This document shows positions 35,621 through 61,858 of a stretch of 64,000 nt of DNA, in pieces. Below the pieces are notes generated by a model. That model saw only the letters and a program-made list of their open reading frames with translations, did no database searches and had not been told where the DNA came from. The translations under genes and the position numbers were made by a program. Source of the stretch: Ascidiella aspersa (lineage: Eukaryota). The first letter of the stretch is position 1; each line of letters opens with the position of its first letter. The stretch is from NCBI GenBank assembly GCA_963924565.1, contig OZ004614.1, positions 7,688,001-7,752,000 on the forward strand, written 5' to 3'.

Positions 35621-35935
35621 TTATTTGTCGATTGCGTTTGCCAGGATTGCAAGTAAAGAAACAGAGCAGCGCTTGGCGTAAGCAATCGGATTTCATCCAT
35701 CGCGAGCTTGTATAGCCGCTGTAAAGCAGCAGCAGAGTCACAGCGCTCACTGAGGCCATCGTTTCGCGTTTTATGCGTTTAAAAAGTGGGTGGTTCTTGT
35801 ACATATCCGCCAGTATGTTCCCTCTGAGGTTTTGTGCGGGTACGGGGTGTCGGGAACGTCTTTGCCCAAGAACTTGCAAAGGTTTTTCCAACCGTCTTTG
35901 GCGGAGTGGATCAACAACTTGTTTTTCGGCGCGTT
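35621..35935 (-). pseudogene. Orphan terminal exon of a sulfotransferase-like gene, frameshifted
   Basis: Clearly homologous to 61859-62173 and retains its TTTCAG acceptor. NAPKNKLLIHSAKDGWKNLCKFLGKDVPDTPYPHK is followed by a 1-nt deletion and further small indels. I saw no exon 1-3 homologues at 36-42 kb. Confidence 0.85.
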
Positions 35936-38900
35936 CTGAAATGTTTTATCGCAAATTTTAAAAACTTTTGCAAGGATTATTAGGTTAAATAAAAACTGTG
36001 GAAAACTTTGTACAAACCACAAACCCCAGGTGATCAAACACACCGGCTGTTTTGTAAGGCTATATCGTTACTAACGGCTATATAATTATATTAAAACTTG
36101 AGGATGCTTATGTTACACAACTCACAAAATAAAGTTGAAATAGTCAAAAAGTATTTAAAATGGACTAGTGTATAGTTTGTCGAAGAGGCAGCGGGCCCGA
36201 TGAATTACAGCGACCGCTTGATTGATTTATATTAATAATTGTCCAACACACACTTGCTGATCAGCCAACCCGAACGAATAACGAAAGGCGAAAGAGAAAA
36301 AATATCCTGCGTTTGATTTTTTTTTAACAGGCGTTTTGCGTTTGATTTTGGTTTCGCATTAGCAAGACGCGTGACTCAATTACACTGAAAAAAACACGCA
36401 GCTTCGGACGGTGAGTTGAACACTGACAAAAACGAACAAAAAACGATAATGTCACTTACAATAAGGGGGGGGCGAACCCCCAAAACCCCCACGGAAACGC
36501 CACTAATCAGGTTATGCTATGCAGAATTTACTGCCGTAACGTTTTGATAAAATAAAATATTCGAGTAAAAATTTTTGAAGAAAGCTGCGCATACTCACCT
36601 AAAGATTTAATAGGGCGATTATCAAAACTCACCAATACCTAAACACTGTTTTCGACTCTATAAAATGTATTAAATTAGTTTTTGTTGTTGTAGAACAATA
36701 AATGTTTTTTTGTGGAAAATACTGCCAGGATATTACTGAGCTTATTTTTTAAGATTGGATATTTAAAAAAAAACTAAAATTAATTTTAAATATATGTTTT
36801 CTTAGTAAAATTCGTAAGCCTTGGCAAACTACCCCTTTTGCATCTACGCCAGAAGTGAACGGGGGACATTTTCGGGCCATATCTGTTTTTCCTTTCAGAA
36901 ACAAATCAAGGAAAAGTTTGGGGTGTATATTTGTCTATAAAAGAAGCGGGGTTGGTAAGACTGAAACAAATGATTTTTGCATAGTTTTTACAAAACAAAA
37001 ACATAACAAAAAATGTATCCCTTGCCTAACTCCCCCCCCCCCCCTTTGCATCTTTAAAAGTCATGGGTGAAGGCAAGACATTTTTGTCCTATATCTGTTT
37101 TGCCTGCAGAAACAAGTCAAGGTAAGTACAACTTAATATATACCCAAAAACCAACAAACCAAACTCAAACTGTATATAAATAATATTACAAGAAGTTACC
37201 CGGTAAATTATCCTATTTATAATGACCCAATTATTGAACCACCCATGAAAATAAATAAGGCCCTGAAAAGTACCGGAACTTGACCAAACGAGACACAAAT
37301 GAAACTGAAGGCTCCCATCTTCGTTAATATGATCCAAGCACTGTTAATGCGGAAATACGAATGCCAGCCTCATTAAGGCCACTGTTCAACAAACTACGGA
37401 TTGCTAAATGCGGGACTACAACGCTAACAGTTAACATTTTGAGTTCTTGTTGTTAAAATGTTGCTGCGTGAGATAAAGCTGTTCACATTTGACACTTAAG
37501 GCCGACTATGTGTTTTGTGAGAAGATTGTCGTTCTCCAACTTTTGCACCGATAAAAAGTTGATTTATTGTAAAAATTTACACGATTTCCGTACACATACA
37601 ATACTACAGGGTCGGCAAACTACGGTCGGCGGCCGGATCCAAAAAAACAACATAAAAAGTTTAAGGTTCCCATTCAAACCACACCACAAACTGGAATTAC
37701 GATTTTTTTCAATTGCAAAACAATTCTAGGTCCGCCGATGATTGACGGTTTTGTAATAAAAAGTCTAAAAACTATATGTTTTAACAACAAAAGTATTCCG
37801 TTTAATGCATTATGGCCCGCCGAGACATTTTTGAATTTGGATTTGCCCGCGACTGGGAAAATGTTGCCCCTGTCCGACTTTATGATGCTATTGGGGCGTT
37901 TAGTATACACACCGCTTCATGTAATTCAAGGTTGTTGCGATGTGTACCGGTATGAATCGGAGTTGTTTTGACTAGTGGCTCGAAGTGTTTTGTTACAGAG
38001 CGTTGTGTTAAGCGTTGGAGCAAACGTAGAAAAGCCAGGGGCGGGGCACGAGGCCATTTCATCTATTTTGACGACTATAACAATGTAACTGTAAACAAAA
38101 ACTAAATTACATTTCTAGTGTGTCTTAACCTATTGGCATAAAATGGCTTTAGCTCAAAGGCGCCATGCGACTCATCGCACCATCGGAAAAGAATGTTTTA
38201 CAACTTGAACGATACAAAGTCGTTTCTTAGCTTTGCACGAATCGATAATATATTGACATATTTTTAACGCAAGTTTCGTATTGAAAGTAACAACTCTCCA
38301 ACCTAAAACTTTAACAAAATAAGCGAACTGTGTTTGCTTTTTATGACTTTACATTTAGATATAACTTGCGACGTCATCTCTATATAAAGGTTTCCCACAA
38401 AACAAAAATTAATAATATGGTAATAATAAGTATTTTTTAGTCACAATTTGTTCATTTAACTCATTAAAACTCACAAAGAAACGTTAGCAGTTTGCAGTTT
38501 TACTCAAAATGTTTCACCTTGATTTATATAAGCCTATTGGATTTAATAGTTGCAAAAGGGTAGTCATTACAAGCCACTGTAACAGAGTGTTTCAGTTCCT
38601 CATTTAGCTTCGCAACTTTTATTAACAAGCAAGCGAGTTCGCCTGCTGGTGGAATGCAGTGGGGTTATTGTGTAGCAGCCAAGCACAGCCGAACGGGAAA
38701 TTTACTGTGACAAAGAGTAACCCGGCATTTCGCTTGACGAATTTATTTGCCCCTCTCCTGCAGAGAATGAAAAGATGAACTGCTCTGTGGAAGACAAACG
38801 TCATATTTGTCAGACCTAACTCGCCTATATGTTGATTCATTTGACGAGGATGCGAACGTTTTTGCACAATGTGCGCGAAAATGTGTAAAAAAATGGTGTT

Positions 38901-42845: not shown

Positions 42846-45800
42846 ATGGTTGGCGTTCATGCAATTTTGGCGACCATCCTGATTATGAACGTGCGACAAT
42901 CCCAAGAAGTGACGTCGTGCACAATGACGTCACCATGCTTGCTAAAAGGTTTGAATTTTTATTATTTTTATACGGTGCGTTGCTCGCGTTTTGAAGAAGT
43001 ATATCCAGTGTAACTGCATTTTTTCGCAAAATTTATTTTTTATTATCAACAGCGAGTATAACTACTTCATTTAACTAACAATTTTTGGCTAACCTGAATA
43101 AATGATAAACGGGCTTTCCAAAAGTATTTTTGCTGTACACATGCTTCGTGCTAGTGCCTTGTTAACTCAAAAAATAAAAATGAAACTTCTGCCAAGTTAA
43201 TCTATTTAATGCAATTTTATCGCCAATGTATCCATTGTGTTAACTTGAACCCTAGTTCAACATAAACAGTATAAACGCATATTTGCTGCGGTATTTCTGT
43301 TAATGCAAATACTATTTCTGTTAATGCAACTTGTTTTGCACGAACCTATACCCAGCAGAGGTATAGCAGGGGGCATAAGGCTATGACCCTTACAACTTAT
43401 TGCCATAAGTTACCTAAATAGAGCCATGATATTGACTAATGTGCGATTAATGATCGTATGCTTAAGGTGTCACGTCTCCTTTAAGTAAGACATTTTGTCA
43501 ATTATATCCATTTGAACGCAAAGTTAATCGCGCTTACGCTAACCGATTGACGATAGCCATTAGAATTATGGTTACGAGTTTGATAGGTAATACGACGTAG
43601 AGGTCACTTACTTCACGACGCCACGCTATGACTTATCTTTAAGACATCATCGCCAAAAAAATTTATCATCCCGTCAAACAAAAAATCAAGATGCTCGCCT
43701 GAGAAAAAGCGGCTCAATCTCGAGATGATTTTATAATTTTTGTGCTTGTTTTAGTATTGTGGTATTATTATTTGTTTAATTCCCATATATTTGTTTATTT
43801 TGCCTTTATTTATTTTGTGTTGACTTTGTGTGCTGTCTAGCTCCAGGTGAGCGCTGCGGATAAAAACACAGCCCAGAAGAAAGCAATATATACTATCCCC
43901 CTGTTTTATTTACTTCTTTTTATATATAGGCCTATATTTTAACTTGTGTAGGGGGATTTCCCTTCAAGCAGCCTCGTCAGTTGATCGCACCAGAAAGCTT
44001 ATTCCGGGTCAACATGACCGTAGAGGTCACGCAATTCAAGGTCGAATGGTTCACCGTGCCGAGAAGGTGTTACAATGGGGAAATCCCCGGGCCCACTTGG
44101 CGCATTCGGCCCGGAGTCACAATTGAGATGAAACTGGTTGGTGTAACCTTAACTGACATTGTCGCTATTTGTTGGTGGAGAAGAACCAGGATCGATTTTT
44201 TTGTCCTAATTTAACTGCAAAACTAATCGCTATATCGTAGATCAGCGTTTTTAACCGCACGCCAATCGCCCTCCCTGGGGTCCACGGAGCAGTTTTTTAA
44301 GGTCCACAAGCAAACATTATTTTAATTATTAGCCAACTTGAAACTGTAATTTTCGGTATGACTTCAGATTCCTGACTTGTGACAATTTATGACGCATTTT
44401 TTTCAAACTTGAGCAAAGCGGGCATAAAGTGTTCCCTTTTGAGTGGGTCACGCCTTATGAACGATTAAGAACAACTGTTTTAGACTAATTGCCAATTTAT
44501 TTAGCTCATGACCGAGCTAGGACAAAAAAAGTGAATTAATTTTACTTAATTGCACCTGTTTACCGCATAAGATCTTGTTCGGTTTTGAGTTAAAACCTTT
44601 GCTAGCACTGATTGAGTAGTTACAATAAACTTTCTCTCGTATATGACTGTGTTTTTATACGCTAACTTAACCTTATATAAAACATCTTTTAACTCGCTAA
44701 AAATATACTTGTATGTATAGAACGATAAAACTATTTTAATTGTTGTTCTTTGCTCTAAGACCAACACCCTCAAGGGAGTTCCCCCCGGGATCGACAATGG
44801 CCACAACACCTTCCGGTTCCCGAACATCACAAACTTCCACACGCACGGTTTGCATGTTAGCGGAGAGGTAAGTATATTACAACAATGAAAGATACACACA
44901 AACATATGTGTTTAATAACATCTGTGATCTAGCCCCTCGGAAGTTGCTTTATGACCAACGATTACGGCTTCCGTATCAATAGTACACCGAAAAGCCATCA
45001 CAGACTCGCCGAATCTGCAGAACAAGCCAGAAAAACAACTGGCCTGCAGTGAGGTTCGAACTCACGACCTCCGGTCAAGCAGGGACCGTCGCTCTACCAA
45101 CTGAGCTATGCAGGCTCAGAGAGGAGCGAGTCGAGAAACAACCATGCGCCAATACTTGCACATTTTGTTAGTACAAGCAACTTCACACTGTGGGATCATC
45201 AGTCCGTATCAATCAATGAAAGACACACACAAACATATGTGTTTAATAACATCTGTGATCTAGCCCCTCGGAAGTTGCTTTATGACCAACGATTACGGCT
45301 TCCGTATTGTTTTTCTGGCTTGCTCTGCTTGCATCATAGATCGACAGATTCGGCGAGTCTGCGATGGCTTTTCGGTGTACTATATTACAACACTTACACA
45401 TTACTCATAGCAACTCTGGTAAAATTGTTAAAAAATAATTAATAATTGCTATAGCTATAGCTTCTTCGTTACCAAATTGTTTTTAGATTGGAAAGGCACT
45501 TTTACCAAATAGTTCAAGTTGATATAACTGTAGGCCTACACAGCTCCTAGTTTAGACTCAAACTTTTAAAATTAAATTCATTTTATTTTATAGTATCCCG
45601 AATGAGATTTTAAGGGCATTTGTAGCTATAGTTCGTACATTTAAACACCTAAAAATGCGCTACTCACGCATTTACCAAATTTACGAACTCCTTTACGCAA
45701 CCTTATACTCTTATACACCACAGTTGGGCAACCTTTAGCAACAAAGGAGCCATTTCCTCTCGTTTTTTCGAGCCTATTTTGTGCATTATAATGGATGAAG

Positions 45801-48800
45801 TTTAAACTAATGCTATGCAGTTACTTCAAGTATCTCAGGTGTTAGGACGACCCTTAGATTTTCCTTAATATCCTGTTGCTGGGCCACGGAGGCATCTAAT
45901 ATTTATTGTTGAGATAATAATAGTTCTAGAATTTTCAGTCACTAAAATACGTTAAATCATATTTATGAATGCTACTATTTTTTCAAGCTTACTGACTTAC
46001 TCCGTTAAGTGGACGTCTACAAAGATGAACTGACTTCCAGTTAACCCCCTTAAATATGAGCTCTTCGATCTTTCAGATACCACACGACAACGTTTTTGTG
46101 GAGGTTGCTCCAGACCATAGCAGTAAGAACTACAACTACCCGATTCTTGCTGACCATCCTCCAGGAACCTACTGGTATCACCCGCACCTTCACGGATCCG
46201 TCAAGCTGCAGGTAGTTAATCGCTGAAATAAAGCCAAATGTATCTACAATATATATAGAATGGTGTCATAAAACCTATGTTCCAATAACAAGGTAATTTG
46301 CTAAACTTTTAACCAAGTTTTAAAATTTATACATTAGGGTGTATCTTTATAGAATCCAAAACCATCGGCGGCAGGTTTTAGCCAGTCGATCACTGCTCCG
46401 CTGATGCGTATATTAACAAGTAAAACTCATAGTTAAAAACATGAGTGACGCAAATAAGGGAAGGAAGGGAAATAATGCTCAGTGCGAGATAGACGGTAAA
46501 ATGCGGCTCGAATGGGTAAACCGCTATTTTATCGGTACCCATTCGTTCACTTATTTGCGTCGCCAACTCGTTTTTCCCGGTCGTGTTGACTGCGAGGCTA
46601 TAGTGCTTTTCATTACGTTTTTGTTTTTATACCTTTTTTAGTCTTTGACGTGTTTCCATATTTTATTGTCATGTTTCCATATTTTATTGTTTCCTTTAAT
46701 TGGTTTGTTCATGGCTGCGCTCTGATTTTATTTATTTGTACTCTTAGAGGAACTGACGATGCCACTTGGCGAAATATACTTTCCTTATAAACAAAACGTC
46801 TGATCCTGTTTTTTTAACTTTTTTTAATTAAAAACAACCTCAGGAAGGTTAAATCACAGTAGATGTACGCATACGGGTCGTGTATGTTTCTTTCGTACAC
46901 CAATTTTCTTTATCCTTGATACCCATACTGAACCAAGTTACATTACTAGGCACAACTGATGTGTATAACTGCTTTGTTCGTATAGACTGAGAGTGGTATG
47001 GCCGGGATGATAATAGTGGAGGACCCTACCAACTCAGACACTCCGCAACATATCCGTGACGTTTCATGTCCTGAAAATTGCGAGCACGACATACAGCTCG
47101 TCTTCCAACCTAGCCTTACATATTCCCCTAACAGAAAAAACGACAGCCTTTTCAAGTAGGTTGAATTTTCGAGTATCAAGTTTAAATAACGAAATGTAGC
47201 AAGATTTTTAGAAACGATCAAATATGTTTTAACAATGCACTAACGCTAAAACCATGTTAAAATACAATCCCCCCAGCATGCGGCTTTTGTCCGCTGAACG
47301 CCATAAAAATGTATATCTGTATAGCTTTGTTAAATTTATTTTTCCTAATATTCGTGCGAATATAGTCTTAATAAATATTGAATGCTTTAGCTGTTAACTC
47401 GTTTTTATGCAGCTATAAGAATGAAATTAGAACCACATCGACGACAGAATAAAACACAATTTGCAATAAGACCAAAATAGAACTGATACCTAATATGCAT
47501 AGTACCGTCTAAATCGGAATAAGTCCTAAAACCGTCGGAATAAGACCCAAATTGTCAAAGTCAGGCCTAAACAACACTTTACCTAACTCCAAACACCCCT
47601 CAGTACATCACCAGCTCCCCAAATAATTTCAACCCTATCCTAACTCTAACACCACCCATAACCCATCAATAAACCCAAACAGGGCCGGATATCCGGTGCC
47701 AAAACAGCATCGAACTAGGGCGTCCCAATGTCGGCACCAAAACGTCCGATGCCGGACCAACGGCTCCCGTTTGTCCCATACTCTCTACCTCCAGTTTCAG
47801 ACGTTATTTTGGCCATTTAGGCCTTATTCTGATGAATTTAAGACCTATCTCGATCGGGGCAGGTCTTATTCAGACAATCACGATGTTATTCTGTACTGGA
47901 TATTACTGTTTATTTGGCTTTATTATGCCGTTGGTCTTTATACTATAGTTTTATATATTTTTTTCTTTAGGTATTATTGCTTTGCAGGTCATGTTTTGTG
48001 TTCCCCCTTATAGGTATACTCAAGACATCACGTCTACCCTCAAATTAAATGTTTTGTCAATTTTAACACAACAAATTCAATTTGTCTTGCACTACGCGCA
48101 AATGCTTTACCGCAATCTGCTTGAACGTATCTATAGACTCGATTCACATATGCGGACGAGTTTGACCCAACCACAGTCAGTTTTTAGGGCTAGCCTACTT
48201 AACTCAGGACGTCACATTATAACGTAACTTTAAATGTTATTTCCGTAAGAATAATCCGTTTCACTATTCGTATTCGGTCACCGCGCCTTGGGTCGCCACC
48301 GCAGCAGAGAAAATTTTCAGACTCCGAAAATAAAAGTGTCAGGAATCATAAATCCAAGGGTAATTTACAGTGTTGGAATGACTTAAGTCAATGACTTAAT
48401 GACTTGACTTAAGTGCACTTAAGTCACTGTTTTTAAATGACTTGACTTGACTTAAGTCATATGGGCAAAATGACTTGACTTGACTTAAGTCTTTCGGACA
48501 AATGACTTGACTTGACTTAAGTCTTTTGAACAAATGACATGGGTTGAAATAAAGCATTTCTTCAAGTATTTAAAAAAAAATTGAGCTATTTGTCCAAATT
48601 TTTACACAAAAAACAAATTGCTTGCTATATGTTCCTTTTTCCTTATTTTTTAGTTCAGTTATTGTTCATAATCATGCGAGTGTAAAAATTCTAATAGTTT
48701 AACGTTTTATTTTTATGACAAGGAGATGACTTGAAGTTGACTTGCTCTGATTATGACTTGACTGGGACTTGACTTATTTTATTCGAAAAGTTATTTATTC

Positions 48801-51800
48801 GAAAAGACTTGACTTGGACTTAAGTTATTTTGCAAATAACTTGACTGGGACTTAAGTCATTTTAAAATGACTTGTTTACAACACTGGTAATTTAGCCCCA
48901 GAAATTTAATTAAAGGCAACAATTCTGTATTCCTCAGCCTGGAGCAATACAAACAGGACGGTTCCAATGATACATTGGCTGATTGGATTGAGGACAACAA
49001 CGATACTTTCAACTACTTTACAACCAATGGTTTGTATAACCCAGTCATGGATGTAAAAACTGGACAAACGAAACGGTTCAGGTAACTAACTACTATTAAA
49101 TGTAAGGAACAAAGCAATTACAATCAAATGTCATTTCAATGACTTCCATTCATGTTTTTTTGTAAATGTTGATTTGTTATGTATCCATAGAATGGTTAAA
49201 ACTGGTTCATTGTGTTTCCACAAAACAGGTAATGGTCTTATATTATGTTCTATTATCTTATATTATGTTATATTATGTTCCTGTAGAATGGTTAAGTAGT
49301 TTATTAGGTTGTCATAAAATAATTATTCAATTCTGGTCTAGTGCACTTTAAATCAGTGGTTCTCAACCATTTAGCTTACGGACCGGTAAAATTTTAAAAC
49401 AAAATTCGCGGACCGGTGGACCTTCAAAAAACAAAAACAAAAAAATTAATTACGACAAAAATATGCAACTTAAAAGCAAAGAATGGAAACTTTAATTTAA
49501 TGAGCAATTTGCTGCTATCTTTTTATAACATAGCCTACGTGTTATAGGCCTACGTGTTTATTGAAGTTTTTTTACATACAACTTGTCCTAAAGTTGACTT
49601 AAACCAGCCATTAACTCATGTTACGTCACAATGCTGCAAATTACGCAATTGGCGAAGTTCTAAATTTGATGCAAGCCTTCAACATCTTCTACTTGCAATT
49701 GAGATATAAAATTCTATTATTTTTGGCGGACCGGCAGGAAAGTTGACGCGGCCCCGGCGGTTGAGAACCACTGCTTTAAATGGTTACTGCTGATGTGTTA
49801 TGTTCTTATAGAATAGTTATCGTTAGTTTATGGGGCTGTCACAGAATAATTAATTAATTATTGCTGGTCTAGTGTACATTCAATGGTTACTGCTGATTTA
49901 TTATTTTCTTATATTGCGGTTATCGTTATTTGATTGTGTTGTGATAGAATGGTTAACGCTGGCGGTGGCGATAACCTTATACTTTTGGTCACTGATTCTG
50001 CGGGAAATGCAGCGTGTGATTTCTATGAGATTGCTATTGATGGTGTTTATATCGACCGTTCGACCAAACCAAACCTGGGAAGAAGTTTTCTGGTGCCTGC
50101 ATCCAGGGTAGATTGGTTAATTGTGTGCAACAAGGAAGGCACATTTTACGTGAGTTAACATTCGTTTAAAAATGTTCGAAATTAAGATCAATGAAACTTA
50201 AGAAAAGGCTAAACATTTGCAACAGCAAAAGTATTAGTCAGAGCACCTGGACTTTGCCATATCGAGGCAGTCGTAACTTTAAACCCTAAAATTTAGCAAA
50301 AAAATCTAAAAAAAATCTTTATTTAATAAAACGCATTTTACGAAAGAATGTAGTGTAGCGGCACTGCACCGACCCGGATTTATCAAAACGTCATGTTTAC
50401 CTTTTTTTCTCGTGCCTTTTTATCGCCGTGTCTAGTGTGTCCTTTTTGATTCAACGCACCTGAAATAAAGACTTTCCATCGCCTTAACAGCATAATAAAC
50501 TGCTGTGAAGAAAATATCTGATACAACTGAATCTAAAACTCGAGTTTGTGATCCAGGTTAAGTCACTGAAACTTCCAGAGGACGAATGGTCAACGGGCAC
50601 GGCCGGATCTTACAACGGAACCCTGCTTACTTTGAGGGTAAGCGGCCCCACAATGAGCACAGTAATAAAGGAGGATCTTCCTGAAAGACCCTCCTATATC
50701 GGAAACTTCACTGAGACTCCCCAAAGTGAAGTCCAAGGTCGATTCGTGATAGAGGTCGGCGGGTCGCTCACCCTTAACCGTGACTGGTTCGTAGGAGAGG
50801 AGTTTTGGAGGTTTGTTTTTGTTAATATTCACAGTGAGTTTGCTAAAGTGTACTATGATGTAAGTGCTTTATGGACTATTTAATTTTGTAAGTATTATAT
50901 TACTTGCGGTCAAACGGTCAAAGGTCACTGAGACCATGGTGCCTTGACATTGTAGTTGTCCTTACGGCGTTTGGTGTTACTATCTTGTCGCGGTAGGAGC
51001 TCTCCTTGTTAGTTACTTGTAAGTGTTTGGTCAAGATGTTTAACTTACACTAATGCTGTTTCTGTTTTAATAACAGTTGTTTTGTATTCTTTCTGAATAA
51101 GATATGAATCCACTTGTGTTAGCCTTTGTATTATTGATAAATTCCTGTACACTGATAGAGACTTCAGTATCGGATCGGATCCATTAGTTTTTAGTTTTCC
51201 TTGTCTGATTATTGTTCAAATAATTATTACGTTTGAAATACATTTGGACAAAATCTTCTTCTTTCGACGAATCTGTTTATGGACGATCTGTTTTCCCAGC
51301 CCAGACGTCCGGGCAGCAATTGAGCAGCCAGCGAATAGATCAAACTGGGTCTTCTTGTCGATACATTTCTTTGGCGCTTGTCTACTTTGCGCATTGGCCT
51401 TAACGCCGTAACACGATTTTCATTTGACATTGCTCCAGGTACAACGTTAGAAAAGGAACAGTTCAGGAATGGTATTTCACCAACACAGCCACGCGTGCAA
51501 GTCACCCTATTCACATTCACGTTAACAGCTTTCAGGTGATTACCGGTTGATGAATACTTTCCATAAAATCATATTCATCACAATAATACAATTGAAATAT
51601 GGTGAAGTAAAAACATCAAACCTCCAGAATATTTCCATAACAGAATCACTTGTGAATATAAACAGATTGTGCTGTTGCTACCAGGCATAGAGTATACAAA
51701 AAAGAAACACATCCGACACTATTTTAATTTCTCCAGCGTTTAGAATATCTGTGTGAAATGCCTTCCCTGGTAAAGGGAAAAGGCAGGTATCCCAAAACGT

Positions 51801-54611
51801 TAAAGAAAATAAATAAATCCTGGAAAGCTTATTTTCAGTATGTAAATCCAACACTAAGTTTTGTCGTTGATTTATTACCTTTATCACGATTTTATCTTGC
51901 CTAAACTCAAGAGGTATTTTACAGGTGATCAGCTATAACGCCTACACCGGTCCATACGACAACAGAGATCGCAACAACTTTAAAAACTGGAAACTTTGGA
52001 ACCAGAACCACGAATCCTGTTTCTACCAGCATGAAAACGACAACAGTAATCGTTCGACGCAAATTTTTTAAAACTCCTTGCCACGTTGAACGTTGGCAAA
52101 GTATTGCTAAATTATTAAGTATTTGGGTACACTATGCACGGATCTGTAATGTAGCTTGATAATGAATTACAACAACATTAACTGAAGATGATAGAAGCTC
52201 GTATCAAAACGTGTTAATCAAGATGATGTCGATCTACTCGACCTTTTTGGCTTTGCAACTCGTTACCAAGCTACTTTGAAGTATTTGGTTGATTATTAGC
52301 TTGATTTATTTTTTGCCAGGCAAATATAACATCTCGCGCCCGGATTTTCCGCTCAAGTACTTGGGCCACGAGAAGCGCTGGAAGAAAGGAGGACCAGGAA
52401 CAATCGGATACTCGCGACCCGGGATCTTTCGCGACGTGCTCCTTGTTCCTCCTCTTTCCAACATCACGGTAACCACGACAACGCCGACTAGAATAATACA
52501 GATATTTTATCGAGAAGGTTGAATAAACTGTTCCTTTCTTGAACTGTATCTGATAAACTTCTCAGACTCGCTTCATAAACTTTGACATCTTAACTTTACT
52601 TCCTCGGATTTGCTTCATGCTCTTTGACCTTTAAACTTTATTTCTTTGCATCCACTTTATACATTTTCTCTTTAAATTAAGCTGTACCTTGCTTCGCATT
52701 ATAAATTTAACCTTTGAATTTACATAATGGGATCCGCTTTATGAACTCAAACCCTCAAACCCGTTTATGAACTTCAACCCTCAAACCCTTTATGAACTTC
52801 AACCCTCAAACCATTTATGAACTTCAACCCTCAAACCCTTTATGAACTTTATAAAGTTAACATTTGGTGTTGTTTTATTAGATTCTCTTCATTAAATTAA
52901 ACCACTAAAAGTTTTATGTTCTTATATTCGCTTGATTAACTTTAACCACTTACGTTTACGTCCTTACATCCTTTTTATGAACTTTCATCGTTAAACTTAA
53001 TTTCTTTAGATCCGCTTTAAGGCCGACAAGTTTCTTGGAGTTGTCGTGATCCACTGTCACATCCTAAATCATGAAGATCTTGGGATGATGTTGACGGTTA
53101 AGATTTTGCCTGATGGTGCGTAGCAAATGTTCTTGAAGGCGTTTTAGTAAATACCAAATGTCGACCATAACAAAAAGCACGTATCACAACGGGACACTTA
53201 GACACTTGGATTAATATGGTTCTTTAAAGCAGAAATCTAAAGCAGTGATTTCCAAACTAGGTGCCGCGGCACACGTGCCTCGAGAGATTGTCAAGTGTGC
53301 CGCGAAACTTTTTGTCGTTTCGGAAAAACGAGTACTTCTATTACCAATTTATTAGGAATAAATAATTTTGAGACATTTACATATAGTTTGTCGTGTGGAA
53401 AGGGCGCTTGTAAAACTAGTCTATTGTTGATCTGTTAAAAGTGTGCCGCGAAATAGTTAAGATTTTTTTAGTGTGCCGCGAGCCAAAAAGTTTGGGAACC
53501 ACTGATTTAAAGGTGTGGCTTAACGTTTAGTTGATCTTTTCAGGAAGCGACCTCAGTCAAAACGTGTCGGTACCCTCAGGCAACGCTTATCCAGGAACAT
53601 GTGATAAAGGGGATGTTTTTCCTTTTAACAACGTCACGTCTAAAGCTAACACGATCAATAGAAGGTTTGTTGCAAAATAACATTTATTTTTGTTTTTTTA
53701 GGAATTAAAATAGGTGAAAAAATTGTTATTAGAAAACAATTATGGACTTTTTATGAGCAAGGTCTCAATAATGTTTCACGTACAAAAACAGTGGGTTTCA
53801 ATGGCAGGGGTATTTGAACAACACAAAAAATAAAAGTTGGGGAAACAAAATCAACAAAAATAGTGCATTTGTTTGAAACCACAATTTGTCGAGTTGGGCG
53901 TATTTGCCTTTTGAATAAATTTTAACCTATACGTATGGATTGAAAAAAAGGCAGTTGAGGGGGTGTCTTTCCGCTCTTTTACAATTCAATACGGAAATTA
54001 CACTGTGTTGTTTTTAAATACCGTGATAGTTGCCAGTATTTTTCTCGTGATAGTTGCCAGTATTGTCATGACTTAAGTAATTGCCTTGACTTAACTTAAG
54101 TTCACTCAAGTCTTCGTTTTTGAGTAAGTGCACTTGACCTAAGCCCTTTGGTAAAAAAGACTTGGCTCGTTTTGCGACTTTCGTACGAATTACTTGTCTT
54201 GGACATACGTGTTTTTATTTGATATAATTTTTTATAATATTTGTTTAGTTTTATCCCATTTTTTTCAACCGTTTTCTCGCCATACGTTTTTGTGTTGTTT
54301 TAATGAAAATATGCTCCGTATCGAATAAGTTGACCAATTTGTATCCTAAATTTACAATTCATTTTTACGCTAAGACTTGACTTTTTGACAATAACTTGAA
54401 CTGGATTTAATATTTTGCCAAATTACCTGACTTGGAAGGGCTGAAGTAAATTTCTAAAACACTTGACTGGAATTTAAGTCGTAAAAAACTTGTTACAACA
54501 CTCTGATGTTTGCTAATGTTAAGAATGTTACGCAGAATCGCAGTGTTCCCAATCATTCAGCTTCTGTTGTGGATGGCTCTACAAGATTTTTACTGTATGT
54601 TAGATCAGTAG
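42846..54611 (+). CDS. Three-domain multicopper oxidase (laccase-like), 656 aa, signal peptide and hydrophobic C-terminus (probable GPI signal)
   Basis: Exons 42846-42948, 43952-44136, 44760-44867, 46077-46211, 46986-47155, 48938-49081, 49948-50149, 50557-50810, 51439-51535, 51925-52045, 52320-52468, 53010-53115, 53544-53664 and 54536-54611; 1971 nt, phases consistent. All four copper motifs are present: TNFHTHGLHVS, GTYWYHPHLHG, HPIHIHVNSFQV and HCHILNHEDLGMM (10 His, Cys, axial Met), plus YNGEIPGPT and KRFRMVNAG. The last exon is the least certain. Confidence 0.93.
44981..45190 (-). mobile_element. Dispersed repeat with an internal tRNA-like cloverleaf (45041-45115)
   Basis: GCCTGCATAGCTCAGTTGGTAGAGCGACGGTCCCTGCTTGACCGGAGGTCGTGAGTTCGAACCTCACTGCAGGCC has A and B boxes. 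Both flanks are homologous to 63448-63679. Confidence 0.8.
48368..48886. mobile_element. GACTT-rich MITE, best-preserved copy
   Basis: TIRs CAGTGTTG.AA / TTACAACACTG, perfect 8-bp TSD GTAATTTA, arrays of GACTT and CTTAAG near both ends. Confidence 0.9.
49354..49773. mobile_element. hAT-type MITE in oxidase intron 6
   Basis: TIRs CAGTGGTTCTCAACC / GGTTGAGAACCACTG; TSD CTTTAAAT; GCGGACCGG subterminal motifs as in the 8711 element. Confidence 0.9.
52121..52274. mobile_element. Fold-back Penelope-like remnant, copy 2 (oxidase intron 10), with a mutated hammerhead motif
   Basis: Starts with the same ATTTGGGTACACTATGCACGGATCTGTAA as 40621. Contains attaa CTGAAGA T GATAG aagctc GTATC AAAA C GTG ttaat at 52177-52218. 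Confidence 0.7.
52738..52850 (+). repeat. About 25-bp minisatellite, roughly 4.5 copies
   Basis: TTTATGAACTTCAACCCTCAAACCC repeated in oxidase intron 11. Confidence 0.9.
53243..53504. mobile_element. hAT-type MITE in oxidase intron 12
   Basis: TIRs CAGTGATTTCCAAACT / AGTTTGGGAACCACTG; TSD AT(C/T)TAAAG; GTGTGCCGCG repeats. Confidence 0.85.
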
Positions 54612-56127
54612 AGAGAAGCTGGGCAACGAATATTTTATGAAAATGGAGTTTCTTTACTACAATATCGTGTCATTTTCGTTAGATTGACTTTGCATCCGTG
54701 TTGTAGGCTTTAAGCACTGCACTATATTTGTAAATGCATAACGTAGTTTTCAAATAGGTGTACATATGTTTTTATTGTGTTTCAAAATTATTTGAATATA
54801 TTTCTCCAAAAAAGTATGTTGGCGTTTTAAAGGATAGTTTCAGTTTAAAGGTGCCATGTATACCCTAAAGTTTCGCCAATTATCGGTATCTGAATGCATT
54901 GTAATGTGTTTTGCGTGTGTTGGTTATGACTTTTAAAAATGAGCATAACATCAAGTTGAACATTGTTATTTTGATCATAAATTTCGTCGTGTGACTCAAA
55001 CTTTAAACCGAACAAATTCAGATACTTTTGCGCTTCACTCGACTGTAACGCCGTTTTCTTAAATGTAATTAATTGAACCCACTTTTAAATGCCATGAATC
55101 CCGGAACGACTTCTCAATAACAATTGATAAATCGCCAAAAAATCACACGTTTTAACAACATAATTGTCTGTTAAAAGTCGTAACTTTTGGCCGAAAGCCC
55201 TTTTAGTTTGATTTTGTCCCGGCACTAGGAAAGTTTGCCGGTCCCTAGTTTGAATATGTAAGAATTTAAAACGCTGTTTACATAATTATACGAAATAATA
55301 ATTTATTCAATGACCCTTTGTACATCAACAGCTGTTTTTAGATTCAAAAGTTGGTTTTATCGTTGTAAATATTAATCAAAATGTGTAGGCATGCCGTTTT
55401 GAACTGAATTTTTCAATGTGTACCTTTTTGAAAGTGATATGATGCGCTTTATTATGATTCCTAAATAATAACCAGTTTCTATACATGCTGATAAATGTTA
55501 GACTTTTTTCTGTTTGACTTATCGTTTAAAACAGGCCCCAAAGTCGCCTTATTGTCGACAGTATTTACCACGCGTTTACAAATGCGACGATATCCTTGAC
55601 AAGAGAGTAGGAAAAGGATCGAAACAAAACAATTGCTTAAATTTGAACTACCTTTATCGTTGTAAGTGATAGGCAACGGTGCATGTTAAATTTAATATTC
55701 ATATCGTTTACATACAGTATATGTAAAGAGAAGTGAATTTTAACTTGATATTTACGTCATAGGTATGTCGAAGTTGATATTAAACCATAACGACAATATA
55801 GCAAAAACGAAACGCAAGAAACATTTATTAACAATACAGAAAACTGATTGCTGTTCCGATCAAAAAAAAATGCCGCTTTCTCAAAATTGTCTGTCACGCC
55901 CTAAAGTCGCCTCACTTGACGACACTAACAAAAAAAATGAATGAACGAATGTTGCAAGGTGGAATAAAAAAAGACAAACATACCAAATAAAGACCACACT
56001 TAATTATAATGCCGCAAATAGTGCCAAGACATGTAAGCAACAGGTTGTGGGTCAGTTCATACATCGGCCATAAACATAGCAAGACTACAGCACGATTTCC
56101 GATGACCGGTGCTATCAAATTAGGTTA

Positions 56128-58881
56128 TTTACTGACCAATTGCGTTTGCCAGGCTTGTAAGTAAAGAAACAGAGCAGCGCTTGGCGTAAGCAATAGGATT
56201 TGATCCAGTTGCGAGTTTGTAGCCGCTGTAAAGCAGCAGTAGAGTCACAAGGCTCACTGAGGCCATCGTTTAAACACACAATGGCCGAGATCTGTAGTTG
56301 TTTTTAAGGTGTCAATGGCGAAATTGGACTATTTTTTTGTTTTTATAATTGGAAAATTTTTAATATAGGTATGGTTTGTTAAATATTTGTTATATTTGTC
56401 TTTAATTGTATACCGCCCCAAAACGACCCAGGTTCCCCTGAGGAATAATAAAGAGGAATCCTATTCAAGCGCAGTAAAATACATCCACAGGGAGCCAGTT
56501 ACCTTATTACTTTTATCTTATTACCACACCAAAAAGAAATACTAAAGAAAAGATCCCAAAAACACAAAAATAAAAGTAAAAATACACATTTTTACGACCA
56601 TAAAATTAGTTCATGTTAAATCTGTTTAATGTGTTGGCCTATTCTTTTAATATCCATTTGAGGCGGTCTCAGTATAAATTTCATTTCGAGTTCAAGCTTA
56701 CTAAAAGTGCAATTAATAACAACTTAACTAATATTAGATTTAATATAAAAATTAGTATTGGTACTATGCATGCACCGAAATAAGCTCTTTATTGGCCATA
56801 ATGTTTGACGTAGAGCTGTTAACAAATACAAAACGACTAAACATTGACAAACTGAATGACATGTGTAAAATATGAAGACATCCCTCTCCCTTACACTAAA
56901 CGACGACAATGAATTCAAATGGGAGAAAATATCTTTAGACTTTCCTGTCTTAGTCAAAGTCAGTCATTAATAAGTAAATATACTGTGTGCAGATCATCTG
57001 CCGGTCGACTTAAATTGTTCAGCAAGCCGTTACCTGCAGAACGTTGGCGTTGTGTCTTCTGTAAGTCATCCTTAGAAATATCTCTGGCAAAGGTTCAATT
57101 CCAAATAGATTTTGCTTACGTTCACAGCCGAATGTAGCTCTTACTGTCCGACAGAGGTACATAAGACGGGTTTAAAGCATCAATATAGGGGGTAGTAGAT
57201 AGTGTGTCGAGGGTAATTTTATGCTGTTTAAACTTAAGAGTAAAATTTAGGCAGTATTGGCGACTTTCAACCACAAATATGCCGATTAGATGAAAAGCAC
57301 GGCTTCAATAACCATTTACAAACAGGGTCCATTCATAGGTACTAACCATAATGACTAAACTATAGTTTTTTACTGTTAGATCGAAAAATTGTTTGGCCAT
57401 AGTTTTGATGTGCACGCCTATCACAAAAAAAGTTGACAAAAAAGCGGCAACAAAAGTGCCATTTATTATATGACTATGACGGATGGGCTGCCAATACTGT
57501 TAGGCCTGAATAGTATCCGGTTGTGCCAGTTGTTGTAACAATAAGTAAAAAATATCACGAAAAAAGGGTATGAAAATGCGCCATGGTAAAGAACACCATT
57601 CCTGGTGTAGAGAATATGATTATATTATGCAATAGTTGTAATATCGCGTTGCTAAGAACTATCAGTGATTGGTTCAGTCGTGTAGCGTTTTGATACGGGT
57701 TTAAAAGCAATACATAGAAAAACAACAAGAATATCTTACCCACGCCTGTCGAAACCTTGAGTAAACGATAGTTTGTGGGCGAAAGGTAAGGGAATAGTCG
57801 AAAGTACCACTTGTTCTCAGCATCCATCTGTTTCTGCATACTTTCCAACCAGGTATGCTCATCGTCTCTCATCGAAAATATGATCTTAACATACGATAGC
57901 TGATAGCTAACAATTGATGTTGTAAGCCTGTAAGGTAATAAACATTTATTCCAAGCAAAATTGACGCGCGACGCCTTCGGCTAAAACATATGAATTAAAA
58001 TGGGGTAAGACATAGTATAGATTATAAAACGTAAACCTGATTCACACGATGCCCGTATTTTACGTGTGCAATTAAAATAGGAAAAATATATGAAGTTTTG
58101 GGGGGCATGGCCACGTGTCAAACCCTGACAGCTAAAATAAGAACTTTTCTATTTTCGCTTTTTACAAGAAGTCTAGCTATGACTTTCCTAAGTTAAAACC
58201 TATCATTCAGTAAAGCAAACTGGAACCATAAGCTGCCAATATTTATAAACACGATTATCAACTACCTGTCAGAAAAAAACAGCACCTTGATGCCAAGAAA
58301 GGTTTCGGAAAAGCCTTCTAATCACAACAAAACTAGACAAATAGCTAGTAAAATCCAAAACACCTATACAAAGTGGGCCAAAAGTAGGCTTACAGTTATA
58401 AAAAGTAGGGTTTCGGTCTAAAAGTAAATTTATTGTTTTGGGTTCTTCTCATACACCTTGTTCTTTACAACACCCCAAAAAAGAAATCCATTAGTGTCAG
58501 GTCAGTTGAGCGCGATGGCCATTCAATGCTACCTCTTCTTCCAAGCCAACGCTGTGGAATAACTGTAAGCCTACTTTTGGCCCACTCTGTAGTTACTGCT
58601 ATAGGACATGACTCCAGTTTAGTTCGTACCTTGGCTTCGGGAAATGCTTTGTGAATTTCGTCCCAAAAATAACACGCGGGGGAATCAGAGACAGCATCAA
58701 CGTTCTCGTACATCCGACGAAAGTCCTCGGTGGTTGCTCCGTGCCGCAAAATTCTCTGCCACCCGTCGCGATGGCATGAATAGTGTTCAGGCGCATCATA
58801 AACAACGTATCCGAGTTGTCTCAAGGCCGCGGCCAATGACGTGGTGCCGGTTTTCGAAAAACCGGTGGAAATTACTTTCAT
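56128..58881 (-). pseudogene. P-loop sulfotransferase-like gene, copy A; exons 1-3 intact, terminal exon truncated
   Basis: Exons 58630-58881 (MKVISTGFSKTGTTSLAAALRQLGY..), 57740-57884 and 57034-57143 are open, and exons 2 and 3 have the same lengths as in copy B. Only the 3' half of exon 4 is present (about 56128-56271, TMASVSLVTLLLLYSGYKL..NAIGQ*). The acceptor and the NAPK..GW..LC.FLG..PYPH.N segment are absent between 56272 and 57033. Confidence 0.75.
58369..58589 (-). mobile_element. Tc1/mariner-superfamily deletion derivative
   Basis: About 30-bp TIRs CA(A/G)AGTGGGCCAAAAGTAGGCTTACAGTTAT with TA TSD. The internal peptide PQRWLGRRGSIEWPSRSTDLTLMDFFFG matches the transposase motif RWIGR..WPPRSPDLTP.DFF.WG. 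Confidence 0.9.
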
Positions 58882-61448
58882 AACGGATTTTTTTAGTCAA
58901 ACAACCAAAACGAATTTTTTGCCAAAAAATGTTTCAAGACAAATTTCTTCAATGTGCTGGCAGCTAACTTTCGGGCTTGTATAACAAAAATCCGCTTGCT
59001 TTTACTGCGAAACGAAACAAAAACCTCTTTTTGTACAAAACTCGCTCGCTTAATCTCCCAATAACGCCGCTACAATTGATTGGCTTAAGTTTAACATAAA
59101 AAAAATTCTTTGCCAGGATCGGAGCAACGCTAATGAATCTCTTGGGGTTAATGAATAAAATCCCATTCAATTAACCGAGCGTTGTTTGATATTTTTTTCT
59201 AAAAAAACGACTTCTGGTGTTGCGCTGCTGTTTGTCGTGTTTAAACCAACTTGAAACAAGCACGTTGTCGTCGCGTTTTGGAACACACCTGTCATCAATT
59301 GTGGTGCCGTACGTTTCCGTGCCAAGTCACATGAGAATGAAATACGTTGGCAGTAGATCTCGGTTGTACTTGCCGCAGATTTATTTTGCCTTGTACGCGC
59401 TAAGGGCTCGAGAAATTTCAAAGCAGTTTAAAAGTCAAATTATATAACAACCATTCTTCCCATAGTTTTTGAAGTTTGTTTGTCGATTTGCAGATCCTTT
59501 TGTTGCTTTTGGTCGCACATACACGTTTCCTGTAAGTTTATGCAAACATGCCAACTCACTATAGACTTAGACTAATTTGTGTTAAATACAGACTAACAAG
59601 AGGATTGTTTCCAATCCTTATCCACCTGCTAGCACAACATACAGCGCAGTGTTTTTTTAAGGTGTTTTGATTTTCTCCAGCGGTTTCCCAAATTTTGGAC
59701 TTGCAACTTTTTGGTATTTAAATGAAACACTTGCGGTCTCTTAAAACTACTTAGCGGTCACCCAAACCAAACCTTAAAAAAAACCCTGCATACAGGGATC
59801 CATTGGTTGAGGCCTTAAGCGCATATCTAATTTAAAACTACAAACCACAGTTCAGTAAATGCAACGAAACCCATGACTTAATTAAAAAAATGTTTTTCAA
59901 TCCTATGTGTCCTGTTAGGACCTCCTATCAGGCCTAACGTCTTTAAATTAACTATTCTTAAAGGGTGAGGGCACACGTTATTCTTTTTTCAGTTTTTGTT
60001 GCTTCAAAAATGTGTTTAGTCGTCAATTAGGTTAAACAGACAATGGGGTTCAGCCAGGTCAAATTATTGAGCACAACTGGGTTAGGACATTAACTATAGA
60101 TTTTTGATATGCGATAACGTATACCCCAGTATCATTAAACAATTTAAAATACTTCCTTTGTAAGGAAGGCATAATATTGGTCCCAGGCAAACGATCCCTT
60201 AAATTATAATTGCTTTAAGCTGTCTTATAATCTTAGCAGTATATAGTTTCTGTTCTAGTCGAGTCCCGGGTCCAGATCCAAATTCAACTAACAACATTAA
60301 ATCAAAACTTTTAATTCGGTAAATACTTTCCAAATTACAAATTAAATATAGTATAAATGATTAAATAATTTAACAGTAAACGTTCCGGCACAGAACGATG
60401 AAATTTGTTTCGAAGTTTTAACAGGCAATTCTTAACTATAGTTTGTCTGAAACAATACGAAATACGGTACTTTAAACAATTTATGTTGGGTTTAAATAGA
60501 GCCAAGTATTAAATAGAGCCAAGTATAAGCCACTTACTTACTTTCTGCTTGTACCGGTATAACCAATTGATGAAATTAGGCCTATTAAAACACGCAAATA
60601 TCACCTTTAAAATACGCAAATAGCATTTACCCTCATTTATTGCCTATAATATATTTTTCGGCGTTGTGTTGACGGAAATGAAGTGTGATTGTTTTAACGG
60701 GTAACGAGGTGTAACGGAAACGAAGTGTACCGCAATATATCAGTTATTATGAACTAGCTGAAAAAGGCTTAATGTACACTACAAGATCAGTATAGTGTGG
60801 GTGAAAAGTAAAAAAGCACACCTTTTTTCAGATTCGATCACCATCCACTTAAAACTTTAATCAACTTGAAATAACGGATTCTCGCTTTCTGGCTCAACAT
60901 ATGTATGTCCTTTACACATTACTGTATTTTGCAATTTGCGAAATAGCGCCAAAGCAAAATCAGCATATCCTACGTTCGACGTGATATACTATAACTTATA
61001 CGTGAATGTTTAGCTAATTTTCTTTGCATAGGCGGCCCCAGGGAGTTTGTTCAATTTATAATACTAAATTGATTAACATTAGGGTATTGTTTCCTACAAA
61101 AAACGATACCGTTGTAATACACTTTTATAGTTTCAGTGGGTCGCTTAATGCTAATCTTAAACTTGGTAGCCCAAGTCATAAAATAATTGTTATATTGTCG
61201 GACATGTTTTGCTCTAAATATCTAGATCAGGTTTTGCAATAAAGTCTTGAAAGGCAAAGTTAGCTTCGCTAGTTGAGACTGGTCAGTATCAAAATTCGTA
61301 TTTATGGTAAAATTATTGACTTTTTAATTTGAGTTCATACAACGGTTGTAAGCACCGCGTGGTACCACTCAAACAATTTCGTACCAATTTAATGATTGAG
61401 GATGCTTGCCAGACTCATAAGAAAAAACAAAGCAGCGCTTGGAGTAGC

Positions 61449-61749: not shown

Positions 61750-61858
61750 GAGTAGGCAATCGTATTTGATCCAGTTCAGTCATGATTGATCGCACTGAGT
61801 GAAACACAAAAATTGAACCCGGTTTTATACGGCACACTAAACCGATAAGAGTTGCGTA

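What the first reader, a model, noticed from the sequence alone, without database searches (positions are those of the whole stretch)
42846..54611. Animal, intron-rich multicopper oxidase with bacterial-style signatures and a probable GPI anchor
Seen: TNFHTHGLHVS, DNVF..V.P, DHPPGTYWYHPHLHGS, HPIHIHVNSFQV and HCHILNHEDLGMM, with a signal peptide, a hydrophobic C-terminus and 13 spliceosomal introns. Known: these motif contexts resemble the bacterial CueO/CotA/Thermus-type three-domain MCOs more than insect laccases or six-domain ceruloplasmin/hephaestin. Inference: an old horizontally acquired or patchily retained cell-surface oxidase, possibly for phenol cross-linking or metal oxidation.
Basis: partly seen in the sequence, partly recalled or inferred. 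Interest (0 to 1): 0.7.

Follow-up and report, generated by a model that had tools for sequence, protein, structure and literature searches.

The report
Sea-squirt bacterial-type surface copper oxidase
A sea squirt carries an intact, intron-rich gene, one of nine related copies, for a bacterial-looking copper oxidase also found in other tunicates, lancelets and single-celled eukaryotes, which likely sits on the cell surface and likely oxidises phenols, and was likely inherited from an old eukaryotic lineage rather than taken straight from bacteria.

Summary
The gene has 14 exons and 13 GT-AG introns and encodes 656 aa with all copper ligands; one public contig skips intron 7. The host is an ascidian. 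Nine paralogs exist, separate from two ordinary laccases and two ceruloplasmin-like genes. Relatives occur in Ciona, Clavelina, Styela and Branchiostoma, then Saccoglossus, ichthyosporeans, a choanoflagellate, a nucleariid and an oomycete. All eukaryotic members form one clade (100/100) beside Thermus-type bacterial enzymes. AU tests reject union with canonical laccases (p 0.006) and a separate transfer from the sampled bacteria into chordates (p 5e-6). They do not reject holozoan descent (p 0.09). So this is a patchily kept, bacterial-type eukaryotic family, already auto-annotated 'mco-like' but uncharacterised in the papers I could search. Likely function: a tethered, low-potential laccase-like oxidase; substrate and GPI anchor are untested. 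The oddest feature is in sister genes: 13 of 43 chordate-clade sequences replace a type 1 copper histidine with aspartate.

The parts
42846..42948 (+). exon 1: start codon, hydrophobic signal-peptide-like N-terminus, Cys25 and Cys31
   Evidence: both Cys kept in 24 of 29 relatives
43952..44136 (+). exon 2: start of cupredoxin domain 1
44760..44867 (+). exon 3: His123 and His125 (trinuclear cluster ligands)
   Evidence: 29 of 29 relatives
45041..45115 (-). tRNA-Ala-like high-copy repeat inside intron 3; not part of the protein
46077..46211 (+). exon 4: Asp136 (aligns with CueO Asp112 by motif spacing), His167, His169
46986..47155 (+). exon 5: domain 1-2 linker with Cys205 and Cys209
   Evidence: 24 of 29
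48938..49081 (+). exon 6: domain 2
49948..50149 (+). exon 7: domain 2, Cys305 and Cys342
   Evidence: 29 of 29; joined to exon 8 in a contig of run X3
50557..50810 (+). exon 8: domain 2-3 linker; no Met-rich insert
51439..51535 (+). exon 9: His456 (type 1), His459, His461
51925..52045 (+). exon 10: chordate-family insertion of about 60 residues begins; Cys498
52320..52468 (+). exon 11: rest of the insertion, domain 3
53010..53115 (+). exon 12: His571-Cys572-His573, His577, Glu578, axial Met582
53544..53664 (+). exon 13: C-terminal stalk with Cys611; candidate omega region near Ser624
   Evidence: Cys611 in 28 of 29; omega site is inference
54536..54611 (+). exon 14: hydrophobic tail (residues 633-647) and stop
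   Evidence: depth in run X3 rises here and stays high to about 55550
54612..55550 (+). probable 3' untranslated region
   Evidence: X3 depth 396 and 220 in bins 54584-55551 against 4.5 for a contig in intron 13; inference

Best explanation
The gene encodes a complete three-domain multicopper oxidase of a bacterial-type family shared by tunicates, lancelets and scattered single-celled eukaryotes; it is likely secreted, likely tethered to the cell surface, and likely oxidises catechols or other phenols with oxygen. Shown: exon chain, all twelve copper-site residues, family membership, phylogenetic position apart from canonical laccases. From established MCO chemistry: the type 1 copper (His456, Cys572, His577, Met582) takes one electron at a time from the substrate and passes it through His571-Cys572-His573 to the three-copper cluster, which reduces O2 to water, helped by Asp136 and Glu578; an axial Met marks low-potential enzymes. 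Inferred: four disulfides (25-31, 205-209, 305-342, 498-611), a GPI-type anchor, a substrate pocket reshaped by the 60-residue insertion, and a role in cross-linking or detoxifying phenolics at tunic, blood-cell or gut surfaces. Inferred origin: one old entry of a Thermus-type enzyme into eukaryotes, patchy loss afterwards (or one later eukaryote-to-animal transfer), presence before the lancelet-tunicate split, and expansion in tunicates.
For: Intact model and a contig that skips intron 7. Ten His, the Cys and Asp136: 11 of these 12 positions invariant in 29 of 29 relatives, His577 kept in 19 of 29; Met582 in 27 of 29. Best solved relatives are Thermus laccase by profile (E 5.5e-46) and by fold of two family members (Z 36.4, rmsd 2.7, 412 aligned). 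Eight non-ligand Cys kept in 24 to 29 of 29 relatives, 11 N-glycosylation sequons, hydrophobic N-terminus. 12 of 29 relatives end in a hydrophobic stretch within 7 residues of the C-terminus. Against a metal oxidase role for this copy: 0 Met in residues 395-455 where CueO has 14 in 355-402, and no acid 4-5 residues before His456, where CueO has Asp439 and 24 of 37 family sequences have one. Eukaryote clade 100/100, chordate clade 100/99. AU tests.
Against: No activity, substrate or localisation data. The genome already has two canonical laccases, and ascidian phenol oxidases of other types are described (PMC9395347, passages), so phenol oxidation is not an unmet need. The closest solved relatives include a metallo-oxidase (3zx1). 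The tail is an imperfect GPI signal, and 17 of 29 relatives do not end in such a tail. RNA run X4 showed no reads in the bins holding exons 1, 2, 8 and 14 (6% of the run read). In the best tree the chordates do not group with Saccoglossus or the unicellular holozoans, so simple vertical descent is only not rejected, not shown. The folds were of relatives (P0043, P0050), not of this protein.
Confidence: 0.55

Rival explanations
1. It is a surface metallo-oxidase (Fe(II), Cu(I), Mn(II), possibly vanadium) serving metal uptake or detoxification, like Fet3p or CueO.
For: Membrane-tethered MCOs such as Fet3p and hephaestin are ferroxidases (established). The host has vanabin-like genes. 24 of 37 family sequences carry an acid 4-5 residues before the first type 1 His. 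A metallo-oxidase is among the top fold matches.
Against: This copy lacks that acid and has no Met-rich insert. The genome has two ceruloplasmin/hephaestin-like genes. The family also occurs in lancelets and protists, so it is not tied to vanadium. The Fet3p Glu185 and Asp283 positions were not mapped.
Confidence: 0.27
2. Origin rival: the gene entered animals sideways on the deuterostome or chordate stem, from a marine microbial eukaryote, rather than descending from the holozoan ancestor.
For: All named animal hits are deuterostomes. The gene tree does not follow the species tree: Phytophthora groups with ichthyosporeans (97/91) and chordates are sister to all other eukaryotic rows (96/86). 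Simakov et al. 2015 describe over a dozen deuterostome genes shared only with marine microbes (PMC4729200, passages).
Against: Holozoan monophyly is not rejected (p 0.088), nor is deuterostome monophyly (p 0.35). Choanoflagellate, ichthyosporean and nucleariid members exist. Most non-chordate eukaryote-like hits are unnamed and could include other animals.
Confidence: 0.4
3. Origin rival: direct transfer from a bacterium into tunicates or chordates, independent of the protist genes; or bacterial contamination.
For: Bacterial motif contexts; an exon 4 search gave 42 hits whose 11 names are all prokaryotic labels; Atlas look-alike clusters are bacterial.
Against: 13 introns, nine paralogs on five large contigs, host repeats in the introns. 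Chordates plus the 12 nearest sampled bacteria as one clade is rejected (p 5e-6; the 12 were picked from the tree). Best bacterial genome hits reach only about 30% identity.
Confidence: 0.05
4. It is a diverged canonical metazoan laccase.
For: Same three-domain plan and ligands; some relatives are auto-named 'laccase-like'.
Against: The model scores 171 bits to the best bacterial protein and 21-26 bits to the genome's own two canonical laccases; their union is rejected (p 0.0064). Only these two long-branched laccases stood for the canonical group.
Confidence: 0.03

Closest known systems
Tunicate and lancelet 'multicopper oxidase mco-like' predicted proteins (Clavelina P0046/P0045, Ciona P0043/P0044/P0063, Styela P0070, Branchiostoma P0067)
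   Same: 37-50% identity to the named Ciona and Clavelina proteins, same insertion, cysteines and ligands, one clade at 100/99. This gene is a member.
   Different: Only automatic annotations; no characterisation found in 10 paper searches. This copy lacks the acid before His456 that most members carry.
Thermus thermophilus HB27 laccase (PDB 2xu9, 6w2k)
   Same: Top solved match by profile and by fold; type 1 site with axial Met.
   Different: About 29% identity in the structural alignment; the animal family adds a 60-residue domain 3 insertion, conserved cysteines, glycosylation sequons and a C-terminal stalk and tail.
E. coli CueO and B. subtilis CotA
   Same: Three cupredoxin domains, same ligand set, Asp112/Glu506-like acids.
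   Different: No Met-rich insert; a relative scores 102 bits against the CueO cut-off of 525; CueO-type enzymes fall outside the bacterial group nearest to the family.
Saccoglossus kowalevskii multicopper oxidase-like (P0227 cluster, ALR88601.1)
   Same: Same eukaryotic clade, hydrophobic N- and C-termini. I recall this protein as one of the deuterostome-plus-microbe genes of Simakov et al. 2015; I could not confirm that.
   Different: Lacks the chordate insertion (56 against 108-137 residues between motifs) and does not group with chordates in the best tree, though that grouping is not rejected.
Canonical insect-type laccases and six-domain ceruloplasmin/hephaestin
   Same: Multicopper oxidase chemistry; both kinds are present in this genome.
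   Different: Separate genes and lineages; 21-26 bits to the laccases; this protein has three domains, not six.

Membership tests
three-domain multicopper oxidase | type 1 ligands His, Cys, His plus axial residue | tested here: met
   His456, Cys572, His577, Met582
three-domain multicopper oxidase | eight histidines of the trinuclear cluster | tested here: met
   His123, 125, 167, 169, 459, 461, 571, 573; each 29 of 29 in relatives
three-domain multicopper oxidase | three cupredoxin domains | tested here: met
   Pfam hits on exons 4, 9, 12; all three Pfam families on relatives P0043, P0046, P0067; models of relatives match Thermus laccase over residues 33-592
three-domain multicopper oxidase | copper binding and O2-reducing activity | not testable with these tools
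   needs purified enzyme
chordate mco-like family | groups with tunicate and lancelet members; 60-residue domain 3 insertion with invariant Cys | tested here: met
canonical metazoan (insect-type) laccase | forms one clade with canonical laccases | tested here: not met
   AU p 0.0064 with the genome's own two laccases as the only representatives; 21-26 bits
ceruloplasmin/hephaestin | six cupredoxin domains, over 800 aa | tested here: not met
   656 aa, three domains; length criterion from PMC3600357 passage
CueO cuprous oxidase | Met-rich insert before the first type 1 His | tested here: not met
   0 Met in 395-455 against 14 in CueO 355-402
CueO cuprous oxidase | NCBIfam NF008205 cut-off | tested here: not met
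   relative P0043 scores 101.9 against 525; the spliced window protein itself was not scanned
Fet3p-type ferroxidase | acid at the Asp409-like position before the first type 1 His | tested here: not met
   no Asp/Glu at -4 or -5 in this copy; the residue set is from PMC10741624 passages, the spacing is recalled
Fet3p-type ferroxidase | acids at Glu185 and Asp283 positions | not tested
   no Fet3p sequence or model coordinates were at hand for mapping
GPI-anchored protein | N-terminal signal peptide | tested here: inconclusive
   hydrophobic residues 2-16; no SignalP run
GPI-anchored protein | omega site, polar spacer, hydrophobic tail reaching the C-terminus | tested here: inconclusive
   Ser624-Lys-Ala, polar spacer and tail 633-647 fit; nine further residues with two Asp fit less well
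gene transferred directly from bacteria to chordates | chordate genes group with bacteria, apart from other eukaryotes | tested here: not met
   AU p 5e-6 for the 12 nearest sampled bacteria; eukaryote clade 100/100

The most novel reading that the evidence does not exclude
Invertebrate chordates keep a third, unstudied class of surface multicopper oxidases, expanded in tunicates and apparently lost in vertebrates, which supplies catechol (tunichrome/DOPA) or metal redox chemistry for the tunic and blood. One conserved tunicate subfamily builds its electron-entry site as His-Cys-Asp-Met instead of His-Cys-His-Met, a natural type 1 copper ligand set that I found in no paper, and would therefore have a different potential, metal or substrate.
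Probability: 0.25. Interest if true: 0.72.

Novelty: new member of a known kind. Interest (0 to 1): 0.42.

Why it matters
It shows that tunicates and lancelets run a third multicopper oxidase lineage beside laccases and ceruloplasmins, with no characterised member found. It also shows that a 'bacterial-looking deuterostome gene' has relatives in choanoflagellates, ichthyosporeans and a nucleariid, which weakens a bacteria-to-animal reading. Nine paralogs with different type 1 sites, including the His-to-Asp subfamily, give a ready comparative set for copper chemists and candidate enzymes for tunic hardening and tunichrome oxidation. The gene in this window is itself a canonical-site member of a family that databases already label.

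Tried and rejected
Aligning ten single exons to three bacterial proteins gave a poor alignment and was not used. An exon 4 search found only bacterial-type proteins among 44 candidates; this was a sensitivity limit, since an exon 7 profile found the animal family. No RNA holder was listed for the stretch; this is no evidence on expression. The 71-row tree rooted on the two laccases under LG+G4 drew a long-branch warning and was dropped in favour of mixture-model trees. FastTree put the ichthyosporeans next to chordates at only 0.63; the careful tree did not keep that. ESM Atlas returned only bacterial clusters; it holds only clusters of 50 or more, so this says nothing on eukaryotic range. An alternative last exon was sought; among candidates printed none beat 54536-54611. 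The last exon of the nearest paralog could not be fixed. Exons 11-12 of the C2:17.29 Mb paralog were not found in about 23 kb downstream. Ten paper searches found no study of this family or of an Asp-ligated type 1 site. Four look-ups of earlier findings gave nothing on this family. Contamination and pseudogene readings were rejected on introns, paralogs and the open frame.

Full report
1. Observation. A 14-exon model from the ATG at 42846 to the TAG ending at 54611 has 13 of 13 GT-AG introns, consistent phases and 656 codons without an internal stop. Exons 4, 9 and 12 pass Pfam cut-offs for multicopper oxidase domains. The model aligns at 50% over 600 residues with a Clavelina protein and over residues 1-656 with a Ciona protein. 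In one search a 1,105-base contig of run X3 (library type not on record, depth 193) lies on 49946-50149 and continues directly on 50557-50808, so it skips intron 7. The same depth value recurs at 52009, 52345 and 53039-53064, and depth stays at 220-396 past the stop, against 4.5 for a contig in intron 13. Other joints were not among the rows shown, so the exon 13-14 joint is supported only by depth. RNA run X4 (6% read) had no reads in the bins holding exons 1, 2, 8 and 14, so the gene was not seen in that sample.

2. Host and genome. The genome is 308 Mb in 75 contigs, with two vanabin matches and one GH6 match. With the tree, this points to an ascidian. An exon 4 search gave 9 matches of 10 candidates, the window's own included. 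For 7 of the 8 other loci exons 2-12 were found in order with the same phases; the eighth gave exons 2-10 only. The finder demanded AG and GT, so those letters are not independent evidence; order, phase and length are. One model (C5:18.09 Mb) has a stop at my exon 5-6 junction, which may be a boundary error. Identity to the window protein is 74% for one paralog and 42-47% for the rest. The same genome holds two tandem canonical laccases and two ceruloplasmin-like genes; an exon of one laccase matches solved fungal-type laccases and ascorbate oxidase.

3. Anatomy. Type 1 ligands are His456, Cys572, His577 and Met582. The cluster histidines are 123, 125, 167, 169, 459, 461, 571 and 573. Asp136 and Glu578 match CueO Asp112 and Glu506 by motif spacing (their role in O-O cleavage is recalled). 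In 29 relatives nine of the ten His, the Cys and Asp136 are invariant. Eight other cysteines are kept in 24-29 of 29; their pairing into four disulfides is inference. The distance from the HPxHxH motif to HCH is 108-137 residues in 29 of 30 family sequences, 48-79 in about 54 of 66 bacterial proteins where the pattern matched, and 54-63 in 6 of 8 named non-chordate eukaryotes. So a 60-residue insertion marks the chordate family. There are 11 N-glycosylation sequons. The tail reads as stalk, possible omega site near Ser624, polar spacer, 15 hydrophobic residues and nine more residues with two Asp. 12 of 29 relatives and the Saccoglossus protein end in a hydrophobic stretch close to the C-terminus; the rest do not. 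AlphaFold models of two relatives (P0043, pLDDT 77.5; P0050, pLDDT 90.9) match Thermus laccase best (Z 36.4, rmsd 2.7, 412 aligned). The spliced window protein itself was not folded.

4. Relatives. An exon 7 profile found 17 proteins, 12 named Ciona or Clavelina. A full-length profile of 13 of them gave 206 hits, 120 listed, with Branchiostoma and Styela members and a gap from 454 to 298 bits. The search of 1.84 billion representatives (best 150 of 14,197) filled the gap with proteins that, where named, are eukaryotic. Thirty clusters were looked up and 13 carried names: Branchiostoma (4), Styela (3), Saccoglossus, Creolimax, Abeoforma, Salpingoeca, Lithocolla and Phytophthora. One search also named Chrysoparadoxa and Perkinsus. 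No vertebrate or non-deuterostome animal was named, but most hits are unnamed, so absence there is not shown. The best 80 loci in bacterial and archaeal genomes reach 23-32% identity and come from many phyla.

5. Trees. FastTree on 278 of 311 candidates (33 dropped for incomplete coverage) gave a 42-row chordate-type clade at 0.997. A careful mixture-model tree of 44 rows by 443 columns, rooted on five CueO-type or other distant bacterial enzymes, gave all 23 eukaryotic rows as one clade (100/100), 12 chordate rows (100/99), and the other 11 eukaryotic rows as their sister (96/86). Three of those rows are known only as 'eukprot' records, and five rows are long branches. With that root the eukaryotic clade lies among bacteria; with the two laccases as root it is sister to the eight near bacteria, so nesting inside bacteria depends on the root. 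AU tests: chordates plus Saccoglossus p 0.35; all holozoans p 0.088; chordates plus the 12 nearest bacteria p 5e-6 (group picked from an earlier tree); chordates plus the canonical laccases p 0.0064. The window protein scores 171 bits to the best bacterial protein and 21-26 to those laccases. Reading: not a canonical laccase, and not a separate bacterium-to-chordate transfer. It belongs to one old eukaryotic lineage of Thermus-type enzymes and reached chordates by descent with many losses (about 0.55) or from a microbial eukaryote (about 0.4).

6. Mechanism. The catalytic cycle follows from established MCO chemistry, and an axial Met marks low-potential enzymes (PMC10741624, passages). Substrate is inference. 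This copy has no Met-rich insert and no acid 4-5 residues before His456, whereas CueO has both and 24 of 37 family sequences have the acid. The genome has separate ceruloplasmin-like genes. I therefore favour a surface laccase-like oxidase of catechols or phenols (0.55) over a metallo-oxidase (0.27). Ascidian blood cells and tunic show phenol oxidase activity, but type 3 copper enzymes are already described for it (PMC9395347, passages), so the role is open.

7. The Asp subfamily. Of 43 chordate-clade sequences with the last motif, 13 have Asp in place of the type 1 His equivalent to His577: two paralogs here, three Ciona, one Clavelina and seven unnamed proteins. Outside that clade 1 of 250 has it. 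Twelve of the 13 were rows of the FastTree and fall in one 12-row branch (0.64) made of two strong halves (0.96 and 1.0), so one origin is likely but not firm. The window gene is not of this type.

8. Literature. Ten searches found no paper on this family. For Simakov et al. 2015 (PMC4729200) I saw the abstract, main-text passages and searches of two spreadsheet supplements: no mention of a multicopper oxidase. The Supplementary Information PDF, a third spreadsheet and the body of Extended Data Table 1 could not be read and bear directly on novelty. I recall a multicopper oxidase being listed there among deuterostome genes shared with microbes; a Saccoglossus record named 'multicopper oxidase-like' (ALR88601.1) fits that recall but does not prove it. 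For PMC3600357, PMC10741624, PMC9395347 and PMC13079984 I saw passages only; the last had nothing relevant. All other papers were seen as search listings. Subscription journals are largely outside the library.

9. Verdict. A real, intact gene and a new member of an auto-annotated but uncharacterised family. Interest 0.42; the Asp-ligated sisters are the part most worth a follow-up.

Noticed in passing
G000:C2:27.50-27.53 Mb (L015-L018); relatives P0050, P0053, P0055, P0054, P0058, P0060-P0062, P0064, P0065, P0238: A conserved subfamily replaces the second type 1 His with Asp and keeps Cys and Met; some also lose the following Glu. 13 of 43 chordate-clade sequences, 1 of 250 outside. One paper search found nothing on such a site.
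   Followed up: partly
G000:C2:17.285-17.297 Mb (L033-L034): One paralog has exons 2-10 but exons 11-12, with the Cys and last His ligands, were not found in about 23 kb downstream; probably truncated.
   Followed up: partly
window 45041-45115 (intron 3): A tRNA-Ala-like element with 1,193 first-look candidates in the genome, the 40 scored nearly all 99-100% identical, several in tandem at about 348-base spacing; flanked here by a near-perfect 91-base direct repeat at 44886-44976 and 45216-45307. Looks like a young SINE or tandem tRNA-derived repeat.
   Followed up: partly
window 35589-35945, about 55900-56300, 58465-58896, 61776-62213 (minus strand): A cluster of similar pieces, two of which hit Sulfotransfer_4 (PF17784), lies next to the oxidase gene; several tandem sulfotransferase copies are likely. 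A link to phenol metabolism is speculation.
   Followed up: no
window about 14484-27379 (+): Exons of a single-pass membrane protein with a signal-like start, a transmembrane segment near 21119-21472 and a long tail rich in tyrosine and proline motifs.
   Followed up: no
G000:C3:12.553-12.593 Mb and C4:9.33-9.37 Mb: Two tandem canonical insect-type laccases (about 92% identical in the tree columns) and two convergent ceruloplasmin/hephaestin-like genes.
   Followed up: partly
P0072, P0220 (Styela): Family members that lack the usual first and last copper motifs by pattern search, so likely copper-free pseudo-enzymes.
   Followed up: no
window 52345: A 3-base in-frame deletion in exon 11 is seen in contigs of runs X2 and X3, so the insertion region is polymorphic.
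   Followed up: no
G000:C3:25.475-25.489 Mb (L010, L011): Two vanabin-like genes.
   Followed up: no
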